Virus genome (UHGV): UHGV-0862315
Reading direction: 5' to 3' (one strand)
DNA length: 11,037 nt
DNA from: a virus
Position numbers and translations under genes: made by a program. Position 1 is the stretch's first letter; the number at the start of each line of letters is the position of its first letter. Of this stretch, positions 1 through 11,037 are shown one piece after another. The notes under the pieces are model-generated. The model saw only the letters and a list, made by a program, of their open reading frames with translations, did not search any database and had not been told where the DNA came from.

Positions 1-58
1 GCCCCATAGCATCGAGGCAGAGCAGGCGGTGATTGGTGGATTGCTTCTGGATGATGAC
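1..58 (+). repeat. 58-bp exact direct repeat; second copy at 1177-1234 inside the 5' end of the helicase gene
   Basis: Direct comparison: bases 1-58 match 1177-1234 exactly and diverge at base 59 (g versus a at 1235). Confidence 0.85.
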
Positions 59-91
59 GTTAACTTATTAGGCGAATTCTTCGAGGCCTGA
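2..91 (+). other. 3' end of an ORF entering from upstream (frame 2); ends ...PHSIEAEQAVIGGLLLDDDVNLLGEFFEA, stop TGA 89-91
   Basis: Open frame from the window edge to TGA at 89-91. The first 19 codons duplicate the helicase N-terminal peptide, then the frame diverges. Start not visible. Confidence 0.35.
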
Positions 92-4817: not shown

Positions 4818-5002
4818 ACGCCACAATTCAAACGATACCAGAGCTTCTTATCCAGACACGAGGCAATCAGACCGAAGTGGCAAGGATGCTTTCCTGCGCA
4901 AGAGGAACAGTGCTCAAGTACAACCGAGACAGCAAAGGCGAGCGTCACGTAATAGTTAACGGCGTCCTGATGGTCAAACAGGGCAAGAGGGGAAGACGAT
5001 GA
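4814..5002 (+). CDS. ninH: NinH-like small DNA-binding protein (62 aa)
   Basis: ATG 4814 overlaps the rusA stop. GNQTEVARMLSCARGTVLKY is an HTH-like segment resembling lambda NinH (recalled). Confidence 0.7.
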   Translation: MNATIQTIPELLIQTRGNQTEVARMLSCARGTVLKYNRDSKGERHVIVNGVLMVKQGKRGRR

Positions 5003-5621
5003 GACTCGAAAGCGTAGCTAAATTTCATTCGCCAAAAAGCCCGATGATGAGCGACTCACCACGGGCTACGGCTTCTGACTCTCTTTCCGGTACTGATGTG
5101 ATGGCTGCTATGGGGATGGCGCAATCACAAGCCGGATTCGGCATGGCTGCATTCTGTGGTAAGCACGAACTCAGCCAGAACGACAAACAAAAGGCTATCA
5201 ACTATCTGATGCAATTTGCACACAAGGTATCGGGGAAATACCGTGGTGTGGCAAAGCTCGAAGGAAATACTAAGGCAAAGGTACTGCAAGTGCTCGCAAC
5301 ATTCGCTTATGCGGATTATTGCCGTAGTGCCGCGACGCCGGGCGCAAGATGCAGAGATTGCCACGGTACAGGCCGTGCGGTTGATATAGCAAAAACAGAG
5401 CAGTGGGGAGAGTTGTTGAGAAAGAGTGCGGAAGATGCAAAGGCGTCGGCTATTCAAGAATGCCTGCAAGCGCCGCATATCGCGCTGTAACGATGCTAAT
5501 CCCAAACCTTACCCAACCCACCTGGTCACGCACTGTTAAGCCGCTGTATGACGCTCTGGTGGTGCAATGCCACAAAGAAGAGTCAATCGCAGACAACATT
5601 TTGAATGCGGTCACACGTTAG
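4999..5621 (+). pseudogene. Q: late antiterminator Q (lambda Q-like), split by a 1-nt frame disruption in a G4 run at 5405-5408
   Basis: Track ORFs 4999-5490 (frame 1) and 5403-5621 (frame 0) together encode one Q-like protein. Adding one G at 5405-5408 yields a continuous 207-aa product (...TEQWGRVVEKECGRCKGVGYSRM...), the length of lambda Q. Lies immediately upstream of the PR'/qut region. Confidence 0.8.
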
Positions 5622-6250: not shown

Positions 6251-6279
6251 AAAAAAGAAACCCAGCATCAATGGCTGGG
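6251..6279 (-). terminator. candidate minus-strand intrinsic terminator
   Basis: Stem cccagc (6261-6266) / gctggg (6274-6279) with a 7-nt loop. On the minus strand it is followed by tttctttttt (complement of 6251-6260). No supported minus-strand gene lies upstream of it. Confidence 0.35.
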
Positions 6280-6766: not shown

Positions 6767-7226
6767 TCAACGTAAGGCATTCCTCGATATGCTGGCGTGG
6801 TCGGAGGGAACTGATAACGGACGTCAGAAAACCAGAAATCATGGTTATGACGTCATTGTTGGCGGAGAGCTATTCACTGATTACTCCGATCACCCTCGCA
6901 AACTTGTCACGCTAAACCCCAAACTCAAATCAACAGCAGCCGGACGTTACCAGCTTCTTTCCCGTTGGTGGGATGCCTATCGTAAGCAGCTTGGCCTGAA
7001 AGACTTCTCTCCGAAAAGCCAGGACGCTGTGGCACTGCAACAGATTAAGGAACGTGGCGCTTTACCGATGATTGATCGCGGTGATATCCGTCAGGCAATC
7101 GACCGTTGCAGCAATATCTGGGCTTCACTGCCGGGGGCTGGTTACGGTCAGTTCGAGCATAAGGTTGACAGCCTGATTGCAAAATTCAAAGAAGCTGGCG
7201 GAACGGTCAGAGAGATTGAGGTATGA
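6750..7226 (+). CDS. R: endolysin R (lambda-type lytic transglycosylase, 158 aa)
   Basis: ATG 6750 with GGAG RBS, overlapping the end of [25 protein letters not shown]... matches lambda R (recalled). Confidence 0.9.
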
Positions 7227-7690
7227 GCAGAGTCACCGCGATTATCTCCGCTCTGGTTATCTGCATCATCGTCTGCCTGTCATGGGCTGTTAATCATTAC
7301 CGTGATAACGCCATGACCTACAAAGAGCAGCGCGATAACAAGGCCAGTGAACTGGAGAAGGCGAACGCCACCATTACTGACATGCAGCAGCGCCAGCGTG
7401 ATGCTGATGCACTCGATGCTAAATACACGAAGGAGTTAGCTGATGCGAAAGCTGAAAATGATGCTCTTCGGCGCAAGCTTGATAATGGTGGCAGGGTGCT
7501 CGTCAAAGGAAAATGCCCTGTGCCATCCTCAGACGAAACCTCCAGCGCCTCCGGCATGGGCAATGATGCCACCGTCGAACTCTCTCCAGTTGCTGGACGA
7601 AACGTTCTCGGTGTCCGGGACGGAATTATCCGCGACCAAACAGCACTGAGAACGCTTCAGGAATACATCAGGACGCAATGCCTTCGATGA
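7223..7690 (+). CDS. Rz: spanin inner-membrane subunit Rz (155 aa)
   Basis: ATG overlaps the R stop (ATGA). N-terminal transmembrane segment [14 protein letters not shown] followed by a charged coiled-coil-like region. Position after R. Confidence 0.85.
7443..7649 (+). CDS. Rz1: spanin outer-membrane lipoprotein Rz1, embedded in Rz in the +1 frame
   Basis: ATG 7443 with AAGGAG RBS. Lipobox LIMVAGC and proline-rich PPAPPAW. Lies entirely inside Rz in another frame, the classic Rz/Rz1 arrangement. Confidence 0.75.
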
Positions 7691-7830: not shown

Positions 7831-7863
7831 GATAAGAGCCAGTCATCACAAACACCAGGATTT

Positions 7864-9099: not shown

Positions 9100-9134
9100 T
9101 GCTCAACCTGAAATAACAACTAAGTGAGATGAAT

Positions 9135-9623
9135 ATGGCAGCACCAAAGGGCAACCGATTTTGGGAGGCCCGCAGTAGTCATGGGCGAAACCCTAAATTC
9201 GAATCGCCTGAGGCGCTGTGGGCTGCTTGTTGTGAATACTTCGAGTGGGCTGATGATAACCCGCTATGGGAGGGTAAGGTATTTTCATATCAGGGAGAAA
9301 TAATTAAGGCTAATGTCCCTAAGATGCGAGCCATGACTATTTCAGGATTGTGTACCTTCCTTGATATCACCAGGCAAACATGGGGAACCTTTCGGTCAAT
9401 GGAAGGTTTTTCTGACGTCACATCACGAGCGGAAGACATCATCTACGACCAGAAATTCTCTGGCGCAGCCGCTGACCTTCTCAACGCTAACATCATCGCC
9501 CGTGATTTGGGCCTCAAAGAGCAGTCGCAAGTTGAAGACGTGACACCTGATAAGGGAGATCGCGATAAGCGACGCTCTCGTATCAAGGAGCTATTCAACC
9601 GTGGAACTGGACGCGATTCTTGA
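9135..9623 (+). CDS. terminase small subunit (P22 gp3-like, 162 aa from ATG 9135; alternative start 9129)
   Basis: [38 protein letters not shown]... recognised as gp3-type small terminase (recalled); 162 aa from ATG 9135. The 3' end overlaps the large terminase start. Confidence 0.8.
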
Positions 9624-11037
9624 TAACCTGAGCGACGAAGAGCAAATCGAATTGCTCGAGCTACTCGAAGAAGAAGAGAACTACCGAAACACACACCTGC
9701 TATATGAATTTACGCCATACAACAAACAGCGTGAGTTCATCGACGCCGGACATGACTATCCAGAGCGATGTTTTATGGCTGGTAACCAGCTTGGTAAGTC
9801 ATTTACTGGTGCTGCCGAAGTCGCGTTTCACCTTACCGGGCGTTATCCGGGAACAAAAGGATATCCGGCTGATGGTAAATATGGCGGAGAGTGGAAAGGT
9901 AAGCGTTTCTATGAGCCTGTTGTTTTCTGGATTGGCGGCGAGACAAACGAGACGGTAACCAAAACGACTCAACGCATCCTGTGCGGTCGTATCGAAGAGA
10001 ATGATGAGCCTGGCTACGGTTCCATACCGAAAGAGGACATCATTAGCTGGAAGAAGTCTCCTTTCTTTCCGAATCTTGTTGATCACCTTCTGGTTAAGCA
10101 TCACACGGCTGATGGCGTTGAAGATGGCATTTCAATCTGCTACTTCAAACCATACTCGCAAGGCCGTGCTCGCTGGCAGGGTGACACAATCCACGGCGTG
10201 TGGTTTGACGAAGAGCCACCATACAGCATTTATGGCGAAGGTCTTACCCGTACCAACAAATACGGTCAATTCTCAATTCTGACGTTTACCCCGCTGATGG
10301 GGATGTCTGACGTTGTTACCAAGTTCCAGAAGAATCCCAGCAAGTCGCAGAAAGTGGTCAACATGACCATCTATGACGCTGAGCACTATACCGACGAGCA
10401 GAAAGAGCAAATCATCGCATCCTATCCAGAGCATGAGAGAGAGGCGCGTGCTCGCGGTATTCCTACGATGGGTAGTGGTCGAATCTTCCAGATACCGGAA
10501 GAGACGATTAAGTGTCAGCCGTTCGAGTGTCCTGATCACTTCTACGTAATTGGCGGGATGGATTTCGGATGGGATCACCCACAGGCGCAGGTTCAGCTTT
10601 GGTGGGATAAGGATGCAGACACAATCTACGTTTCACGCGTGTGGAAGGCGAAAGAAAAACAGCCGTTCAGGCGTGGGGAGCAGTTAAATCATGGGCGCAT
10701 AAAGTGCCAACCGCATGGCCTCATGACGGAAACCAGCACGAGAAGGGCGGCGGTGAGCAGCTTAAAGGGCAGTACGCGGAAGCTGGTTTTATGATGTTGC
10801 AGGAGCATGCGACATGGCCTGATGGCGGTAATGCTGTTGAGCCTGGCATCACTGAATTGCGCGACATGATGCTTGATGGTCGCTTCAAAGTATTCAACAC
10901 CTGTGAGCCATTCTTTGAGGAGTTTCGCCTCTATCACCGTGATGAAACGGGAAATCGTCAAGCTTAACGACGACGTGCTCTCCGCCGTTCGCTATGCATA
11001 CATGATGCGCCGCTTCGCCAAAATGATGCGCGACATC
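9601..11037 (+). pseudogene. terminase large subunit (P22 gp2-like), reading frame broken at about 10655 and restored at about 10945-10955; 3' end beyond the window
   Basis: GTG 9601 overlaps the small terminase 3' end. Frame 1 (9601 to about 10659) carries the ATPase part (AGNQLGKS); frame 0 (10641-10967) carries nuclease-domain-like motifs (AWPHDG...EKGGGEQ); frame 1 resumes at 10963 (LNDDVLSAVRYAYMMRRFAKMMRDI). Both disruptions fall in A runs. Confidence 0.8.

What the first reader, a model, noticed from the sequence alone, without database searches (positions are those of the whole stretch)
10650..10960. Large terminase reading frame shifts out at an A5 run and back in about 290 bp later
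The ATPase part is in frame 1 up to about 10659 and the nuclease-like part is in frame 0 (10641-10967); frame 1 resumes at 10963. The first break sits in aaaaa at 10655-10659. Frame restoration near 10945-10955 needs either one extra base or, as a comparison with recalled P22 gp2 suggests, two single-A deficits (gaaac and gggaaat). Net effect: an internal roughly 100-aa segment is out of frame, which would inactivate packaging if real.
Basis: partly seen in the sequence, partly recalled or inferred. Interest (0 to 1): 0.45.

Follow-up and report, generated by a model that had tools for sequence, protein, structure and literature searches.

The report
Homopolymer miscalls break a phage terminase gene
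An ordinary P22-type phage DNA-packaging gene looks broken because three single A's are missing from short A-runs, and the pattern across the window points to sequencing or assembly error rather than to biology.

Summary
Window 9601-11037 encodes a P22-like (IME10/SPN9CC-type) large terminase. Compared with about 95 relatives it lacks exactly three single A's: A6->A5 at 10655-10659, A4->A3 at 10945-10947 and A4->A3 at 10952-10954. The first deletion shifts the frame, with a premature TGA at 10792-10794. The other two shift it back. Restoring the three A's gives a protein that aligns without gaps to the P22 nuclease-domain crystal structure (E 3e-115).

The break lies inside the nuclease domain (aa 352), not at the ATPase/nuclease boundary.

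The same signature occurs elsewhere in the window. The antiterminator gene Q is split by G5->G4 at 5405-5408, and a non-coding A4 is A3 near 6260. Every window-specific 1-bp indel is a homopolymer contraction.

The corrected terminase differs from IME10 by 29 synonymous and 2 non-synonymous changes. The identical Q contraction recurs on three unrelated haplotypes, one of them an E. coli assembly with seven annotated frameshifted genes in 14 kb.

Most likely explanation (about 0.75): homopolymer under-calls in an error-prone assembly. Main rival (about 0.2): real slippage mutations in a defective prophage. Programmed recoding is not supported. Interest is low.

The parts
9601..11037 (+). Large terminase gene (P22 gp2 type), cut by the window end about 60 nt before its stop. 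As written it is interrupted by three 1-base deletions.
   Evidence: 97.6% nt identity to IME10 gene 2 and 97.8% to an E. coli prophage terminase, 1437 vs 1440 nt. Pfam Terminase_6N 57-302 and Terminase_6C 318-470 on the corrected protein. PDB 4DKW E 3.4e-115.
10655..10659 (+). A5 run that is A6 in relatives. This is the first frameshift (-1 base), at codon 352.
   Evidence: gap in 80 of 81 aligned relatives. A6 allele in 93 IMG/VR stretches against A5 in 1.
10792..10794 (+). Premature TGA reached in the original frame after the first deletion. It yields a 397-aa product with a 45-aa nonsense tail.
10641..10967 (+). Phase-0 ORF holding the displaced core of the RNase H-like nuclease domain.
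   Evidence: Pfam Terminase_6C E 6.5e-15, profile positions 36-132 of 155.
10945..10947 (+). A3 run that is A4 in all relatives. This is the second deletion.
   Evidence: gap in 80 of 80 relatives. It is unique to the window.
10952..10954 (+). A3 run that is AAAA or AAGA in relatives. This third deletion restores the original frame.
   Evidence: Shared only with IMG/VR contig L005.
9129..9623 (+). Small terminase gene (gp3 type), intact, overlapping the start of the large terminase gene.
   Evidence: and annotation of IME10 and the E. coli relative.
4999..5621 (+). Antiterminator Q gene, split by a G5->G4 contraction at 5405-5408. It shows the same error signature as the terminase gene.
   Evidence: gap in 18 of 18 relatives; adding one G gives a full 207-aa Q.
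6258..6260 (+). Non-coding A3 run that is A4 in the two close relatives covering it.

Best explanation
The gene is an ordinary, intact P22-type large terminase whose sequence was recorded with three homopolymer runs one base too short (A6 read as A5, and two A4 runs read as A3). These are consensus errors of an error-prone sequencing or assembly process that under-calls homopolymer length. The same process shortened a G5 run in gene Q and an A4 run in non-coding DNA of the same window. That the three terminase deletions sum to three bases, so the frame comes back, is coincidence. Shown here: the positions and nature of the indels, their restriction to homopolymers, their absence from relatives, and exact restoration of a conserved protein on repair. 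Inferred: that they arose in sequencing rather than in the cell.
For: (1) Every window-specific 1-bp indel is a deletion inside a homopolymer run: three in the terminase gene, one in Q and one non-coding. There are no window-specific insertions. (2) Adding back the three A's gives a protein that aligns with no gaps to the P22 nuclease domain 4DKW, E 3.4e-115, with the repaired sites reading ...TAVQAW... and ...HRDENGKIVK... as in P22. (3) The corrected gene differs from IME10 by 29 synonymous and only 2 non-synonymous changes. The 290 nt between the breaks are identical to IME10. The window has only 2-4 private substitutions in 1437 nt against 3 private indels, a ratio far from what mutation accumulation gives (my knowledge: about 10 substitutions per indel in E. 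coli). (4) A second essential gene, Q, is broken the same way. The identical G5->G4 contraction occurs on three other Q haplotypes that differ by 8-13 SNPs. Among 1206 complete E. coli records it appears only in strain ET479, whose prophage has 7 genes annotated 'frameshifted' in 14 kb, most of them traceable to homopolymer contractions. It also appears in a metagenome contig of coverage 0.95. (5) The terminase A5 allele is absent from the top-scoring of 196 complete E. coli records, from 11 phage records, and from the genome and metagenome collections. It occurs once in IMG/VR against 93 for A6. That one contig, L005, is a different phage (96.4% identity) with two of the same three contractions plus a T7->T6. 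This is recurrence at the same sites, not shared descent. (6) Published profiles of long-read assembly errors match this pattern: deletions dominate, are tied to homopolymers (mostly 4-5 bases, A/T most often) and are non-random by context (PMC12007338).
Against: No reads, quality values or platform information are available, so the error is inferred, not seen. The source contig was not found in any collection. Homopolymer slippage is also the commonest real indel mutation. Recurrence at A6 and G5 runs is expected for real hot spots too. The quality of L005, of the Logan contig L101 and of their platforms is unknown; if those are accurate short-read assemblies, the alleles exist in nature. Both non-synonymous differences in the terminase gene (S41N, L243Q) are private to the window, which could hint at relaxed selection, or at further errors. 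The density is 5 window-specific contractions among roughly 116 runs of 4 or more bases. That is about half the density in ET479, so the assembly, if noisy, is only moderately so.
Confidence: 0.75

Rival explanations
1. The deletions are real. The window comes from a defective (cryptic) P22-like prophage that has lost late-gene activation (Q) and DNA packaging (large terminase) through replication slippage in short homopolymer runs. Once one essential gene was lost the others drifted. The frame restoration in the terminase gene is chance.
For: Two essential genes are broken in one element, as expected once a prophage is no longer selected for lytic growth. Slippage in mononucleotide runs is the commonest natural indel (my knowledge). 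The same alleles are seen in independent records, as expected for mutational hot spots. The two non-synonymous terminase changes are private to the window.
Against: There is no other sign of decay: no IS elements, large deletions or nonsense substitutions. The other ORFs of the window that have an annotated counterpart in HK620 or IME10 are intact. The window has 3 indels against 2-4 private substitutions in 1.4 kb, and 29:2 synonymous to non-synonymous changes against IME10. Time enough for three A4-A6 slippage events should have left many more substitutions. The alleles are essentially absent from finished genomes: none found among 196 records for the terminase site, and 1 of 1206 for Q, that one in an error-laden assembly. 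All indels are deletions.
Confidence: 0.21
2. The frameshifts are decoded: ribosomal or transcriptional slippage on the A runs restores a full-length terminase. This would be a programmed recoding or phase-variable switch on packaging.
For: A -1 slip of tRNA-Lys on the A5 run would regenerate exactly the wild-type peptide ...KEKTAVQ... (read from the sequence). Lysine codons in A-runs are known to be slippery (my knowledge).
Against: There is no X XXY YYZ heptamer in the right phase, because the in-frame codons are GAA AAA CAG. The downstream 101 nt fold no better than shuffles, z -0.61. Three separate slips would be needed. 95 of 97 homologues have a plain open frame, so nothing is conserved. 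A5 is far shorter than the runs known to give efficient transcriptional slippage (my knowledge). The Q gene break has no such rationale.
Confidence: 0.01

Closest known systems
Large terminase gp2 of P22-like phages (Lederbergvirus), closest Enterobacteria phage IME10 gene 2 / Salmonella phage SPN9CC; P22 gp2 nuclease domain structure PDB 4DKW
   Same: 97.6% nucleotide identity to IME10 over 1437 nt. Same gene order, small terminase then large terminase. After repair, the same domain layout (Terminase_6N plus Terminase_6C) and a gap-free alignment to the P22 nuclease domain.
   Different: As written, the window lacks three A's and so has no continuous reading frame. It also carries two private amino-acid changes, S41N and L243Q.
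Gene-fragmenting homopolymer indel errors in long-read or low-coverage assemblies (for example as profiled in PMC12007338)
   Same: Deletions only, all in mononucleotide runs of 4-6 bases, mostly A. They are scattered over coding and non-coding DNA and reproducible at the same sites in other assemblies. Repair restores conserved proteins.
   Different: The platform and reads of this window are unknown. The density, about 1 per 2 kb, is lower than in the clearly noisy ET479 record.
Defective lambdoid/P22-like prophages of E. coli with inactivated late genes
   Same: Q and the terminase gene are both non-functional as written.
   Different: Typical cryptic prophages show large deletions, IS insertions and many substitutions. 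Here the gene set is complete and the sequence is otherwise under clear purifying-selection history.
Programmed -1 ribosomal frameshifting (for example phage tail chaperone G/GT, dnaX)
   Same: A frame change at a run of A's.
   Different: No in-phase slippery heptamer, no stimulatory structure, no conservation, and three shifts would be required.

Membership tests
P22-type large terminase (TerL, gp2) | N-terminal packaging ATPase domain | tested here: met
   Pfam Terminase_6N, residues 57-302, E 8e-47. This part is in frame in the window.
P22-type large terminase (TerL, gp2) | C-terminal RNase H-like nuclease domain contiguous with the ATPase domain | tested here: inconclusive
   Present and gap-free against PDB 4DKW only after three A's are restored. 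As written it is split over two frames, with a stop at 10792-10794.
P22-type large terminase (TerL, gp2) | Position directly downstream of the small terminase gene and upstream of the portal gene | tested here: met
   Small terminase at 9129-9623 (annotation of relatives). The portal side lies beyond the window end, so that part was not testable.
Homopolymer under-call assembly error | Indels confined to mononucleotide runs and biased to deletions | tested here: met
   Five of five window-specific 1-bp indels are contractions of A4, A4, A4, A6 and G5 runs. There are no window-specific insertions.
Homopolymer under-call assembly error | Repair restores a conserved protein; several unrelated genes and non-coding DNA are affected; no matching excess of substitutions | tested here: met
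   29 synonymous and 2 non-synonymous against IME10; 2-4 private substitutions against 3 indels in the terminase gene.
Homopolymer under-call assembly error | Same sites miscalled in other, independently error-laden assemblies and absent from high-quality ones | tested here: met
   The Q G4 allele occurs in ET479 (7 'frameshifted' genes in 14 kb) and in a 0.95x-coverage contig, and in 1 of 1206 complete records overall. The terminase A5 allele occurs only in L005; the quality of L005 is unknown.
Homopolymer under-call assembly error | Reads or quality values disagree with, or only weakly support, the consensus at the sites | not testable with these tools
   No reads, and the source contig was not found.
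Programmed -1 ribosomal frameshift site | Slippery heptamer X XXY YYZ in the zero frame | tested here: not met
   In-frame codons are AAA GAA AAA CAG. No phase of the run satisfies the heptamer rule.
Programmed -1 ribosomal frameshift site | Downstream stimulatory structure and conservation of the shift among homologues | tested here: not met
   Fold z-score -0.61. 95 of 97 homologues have an uninterrupted frame.
Defective prophage pseudogene | Independent signs of relaxed selection: nonsense or many non-synonymous changes, large deletions, IS insertions | tested here: not met
   No other broken ORFs in the window against HK620/IME10. 29 synonymous and 2 non-synonymous against IME10. Two private non-synonymous changes are too few to decide.

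The most novel reading that the evidence does not exclude
The A6 run in the terminase nuclease domain and the G5 run in Q are genuine, recurrent slippage hot spots. They switch P22-like prophages off, and potentially back on, in natural E. coli populations, so the rare A5/G4 alleles seen on several unrelated backgrounds are real and not technical.
Probability: 0.03. Interest if true: 0.45.

Novelty: not a real feature. Interest (0 to 1): 0.07.

Why it matters
It matters mainly as a quality flag. Anyone annotating this contig would call the large terminase and Q genes pseudogenes and the prophage defective, when the underlying phage is probably intact. If the deletions were real, the element would be an ordinary defective P22-like prophage, which is also well known. 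Neither reading opens a new question. The recurrence of identical homopolymer contractions in unrelated public records is a useful reminder that shared frameshift alleles are not evidence of shared descent or of function.

Tried and rejected
(1) I tried to find the source contig with exact scans for the A5 allele. IMG/VR gave only a different phage, and the genome and metagenome collections gave nothing. Exact look-ups of the 397-aa truncated product, with V or M start, found nothing. So platform and coverage stay unknown.

(2) A search of the 5.8-billion-protein set with the 49-aa out-of-frame tail gave no hit. The frameshifted product is not a recurrent called protein.

(3) Shared descent of the A5 and third-site deletions between the window and L005 is rejected. 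The window is identical to intact IME10 between the two sites, whereas L005 differs there by many SNPs.

(4) The 17-mer for the second-site deletion hit two IMG/VR contigs. Neither turned up in the later terminase comparison against all loci, so I treated them as chance matches and did not follow them.

(5) The programmed-frameshift reading is rejected.

(6) The P22 nuclease structure paper (PMC3431676) is not held. I therefore do not name catalytic residues and describe the loss only by Pfam profile positions.

(7) tRNA and Rfam scans of the window were empty.

(8) The TT->T difference at 7843 looked window-specific against HK620, but only about half of the relatives carry TT. It is ordinary non-coding polymorphism and was dropped from the error count.

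Full report
**What is in the sequence**

Window 9601-11037 is the large terminase gene of a P22-like phage or prophage. It is cut about 60 nt before its stop by the window end. It is 97.6% identical in DNA to gene 2 of Enterobacteria phage IME10 and 97.8% to a prophage of E. coli 503440. In every listed relative the matching stretch is 1440 nt against the window's 1437.

- The terminase frame is open from the GTG at 9601 to a TGA at 10792-10794.
- A phase-0 ORF runs 10641-10967.
- The original phase is open again from 10963 to the end.

Alignments and a 97-sequence alignment locate the cause as three single-base deletions, each in a run of A's:
- A6->A5 at 10655-10659.
- GAAAAC->GAAAC at 10945-10947.
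- GGGAAAATC (or GGGAAGATC)->GGGAAATC at 10952-10954.

**What the gene is**

With the three A's restored, the protein has Pfam Terminase_6N at residues 57-302 and Terminase_6C at residues 318-470. Its residues 289-480 align without a gap to the crystal-structure sequence of the P22 large terminase nuclease domain, PDB 4DKW, E 3.4e-115. The repaired junctions read as in P22. The N-terminal 33 residues match the P22 TerL peptide of PDB 6VI1.

The phase-0 ORF alone matches Terminase_6C profile positions 36-132 of 155.

The first break is at residue 352. As written, the gene would give a 397-aa product with the ATPase domain, the first part of the nuclease domain and a 45-aa nonsense tail. Such a product could not cut concatemers, so packaging would fail if the sequence were true.

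**The surroundings carry the same signature**

I compared the whole window with HK620, IME10 and about 95 IMG/VR relatives. The window-specific 1-bp indels are as follows:
- The three in the terminase gene.
- G5->G4 at 5405-5408 inside the antiterminator gene Q, seen as a gap in 18 of 18 relatives.
- A4->A3 near 6258-6260 in non-coding DNA, seen in 2 of 2 relatives.

All five are deletions in homopolymer runs, and there is no window-specific insertion.

Adding one G to Q turns the 163-aa and 72-aa fragments into a normal 207-aa Q with its two Cys-x-x-Cys motifs (CRDC, CGRC) intact. The other ORFs of the window that have an annotated counterpart in HK620 or IME10 are intact: O, P, NinB, NinE, NinF, Roi, RusA, NinH, S, R, Rz and the small terminase.

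**Real mutation or error?**

Four lines of evidence bear on this.

First, the substitution record. The repaired terminase gene differs from IME10 by 29 synonymous and 2 non-synonymous changes. The 290 nt between the breaks are identical to IME10. Only 2-4 substitutions are private to the window among 60-90 relatives. Three private indels against 2-4 private substitutions is far from the roughly ten-to-one excess of substitutions over indels seen in E. coli mutation accumulation (my knowledge, not computed here).

Second, rarity in good data:
- The A5 allele is absent from the top-scoring of 196 complete E. coli records, whether queried on the window's or on L005's background.
- It is absent from the 11 phage records that match the site.
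- It is absent from the species-representative genomes and JGI/ENA metagenome contigs.
- In IMG/VR it occurs once, against 93 stretches with A6.

Third, recurrence on unrelated backgrounds. The one IMG/VR carrier (L005, from isolate genome 2531839195) is a different phage at 96.4% identity. It has the first and third deletions but not the second, plus a T7->T6 contraction elsewhere. Between the two shared sites the window is identical to intact IME10 while L005 differs at many positions. The deletions are therefore recurrent, not inherited together.

The Q contraction behaves the same way. It is found on three other Q haplotypes that differ from the window and from each other by 8-13 SNPs in 623 nt.

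Fourth, the company these alleles keep. Among 1206 complete E. coli records with this Q type, only strain ET479 has G4. In that record seven of 25 prophage genes in 14 kb are annotated "frameshifted". Most of its indels against relatives are homopolymer contractions, so it is a visibly error-laden assembly. Another carrier is a 1265-nt metagenome contig with k-mer coverage 0.95.

A published error profile of nanopore bacterial assemblies describes this pattern. Deletions are tied to homopolymers, most often of four to five bases. A/T runs are the most affected. The errors are non-random by context (PMC12007338).

**Weighing**

Both "noisy consensus" and "decaying prophage" explain why several rare alleles sit together in one 11-kb window. 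Four observations favour error, at about 0.75:
- The indel-to-substitution ratio.
- The clean purifying-selection history.
- The absence of any other decay.
- The link between the same contraction and a demonstrably noisy assembly.

Real slippage in a defective prophage stays possible, at about 0.2. No reads are available, homopolymers are also natural hot spots, and the quality of L005 and of the Logan contig is unknown. The two non-synonymous terminase changes (S41N, L243Q) are both private to the window, which fits either further errors or relaxed selection.

The three deletions sum to three bases, so the frame returns. I take this as coincidence under either reading. L005 has only two of them and stays out of frame.

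**Recoding**

A -1 slip on the A5 run would regenerate the wild-type peptide, but the evidence is against it:
- There is no in-phase X XXY YYZ heptamer; the codons are GAA AAA CAG.
- The downstream 101 nt fold no better than shuffled sequence, z -0.61.
- Three separate slips would be needed.
- 95 of 97 homologues have a plain open frame.

I put this at about 0.01.

**Comparison with the known, and novelty**

The gene belongs with the P22/IME10-type large terminases. The ATPase domain and the synteny criterion are met. The contiguous nuclease domain is met only after repair. The finding itself belongs with gene-fragmenting homopolymer errors of sequence assemblies. It is not a new biological feature.

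If the deletions proved real, the element would be a commonplace defective P22-like prophage.

The most novel reading not excluded is that these A6 and G5 runs are true recurrent on/off slippage sites of prophages. That has a probability of about 0.03 and would be of moderate interest.

**Verdict**

- Observation: confirmed.
- Interpretation: partly supported.
- Most likely cause: a sequencing or assembly artefact.
- Interest: low (0.07).

Noticed in passing
window 4999-5621 (G4 run at 5405-5408): The antiterminator gene Q is split by a G5->G4 contraction into 163-aa and 72-aa ORFs. Adding one G restores a normal 207-aa Q. The exact 163-aa truncated product is also encoded on Logan contig ERR10497706_996 (L101). 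The same G4 allele is in E. coli ET479 (L102) and in ENA metagenome contig OQIC01013194 (L103), each on a different Q haplotype.
   Followed up: yes
window 1-70 and 1177-1234: The first 58 bases of the window are an exact copy of 1177-1234, the N-terminal part of the replicative helicase gene P. They are followed by 12 unique bases (GTTAACTTATTA) and then the 3' end of a cII-like gene. This could be a rearrangement or partial duplication upstream of the replication genes, or an assembly or contig-end artefact. The sequence upstream of the window is not available.
   Followed up: partly
window 6258-6260: A non-coding A4 run between Q and the holin gene is A3 in the window (2 of 2 close relatives have A4). 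It shows the same contraction signature as the coding frameshifts.
   Followed up: partly
L005 4957-4981 and 5258-5275 (IMGVR_UViG_2531839195_000016): An independent IMG/VR prophage contig, 96.4% identical in the terminase gene, carries two of the same three single-A deletions and stays out of frame. It also has a T7->T6 contraction at L005 about 1839. Its terminase gene is probably mis-sequenced or defective in the same way.
   Followed up: partly
L102 1-14096 (E. coli ET479, NZ_CP100950.1 1489445-1503540): This RefSeq 'complete genome' has seven of 25 prophage genes annotated as frameshifted in 14 kb: cII, O, P, RusA, Q, holin and small terminase. Most of the indels found against relatives are contractions of mononucleotide runs, chiefly G/C runs. 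The record looks like an unpolished long-read assembly.
   Followed up: partly
L035 near the position matching window 9628 (IMGVR_UViG_2513237219_000006): This is the only other frame-disrupting indel among 97 aligned terminase genes: a single T insertion (CCTG->CCTTG) near the 5' end of the gene.
   Followed up: no
window 9722 and 10328: Two non-synonymous terminase substitutions (S41N, L243Q) are private to the window. All 62-88 aligned relatives have G and T respectively. They could be further base-call errors or real private changes.
   Followed up: partly
window 7337-7357: A 21-nt in-frame insertion relative to one relative, inside the Rz-like spanin gene (7223-7690), and a 9-nt repeat-unit difference at about 7552 (CGGCGCCTC). 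This is ordinary length variation in the lysis cassette.
   Followed up: no
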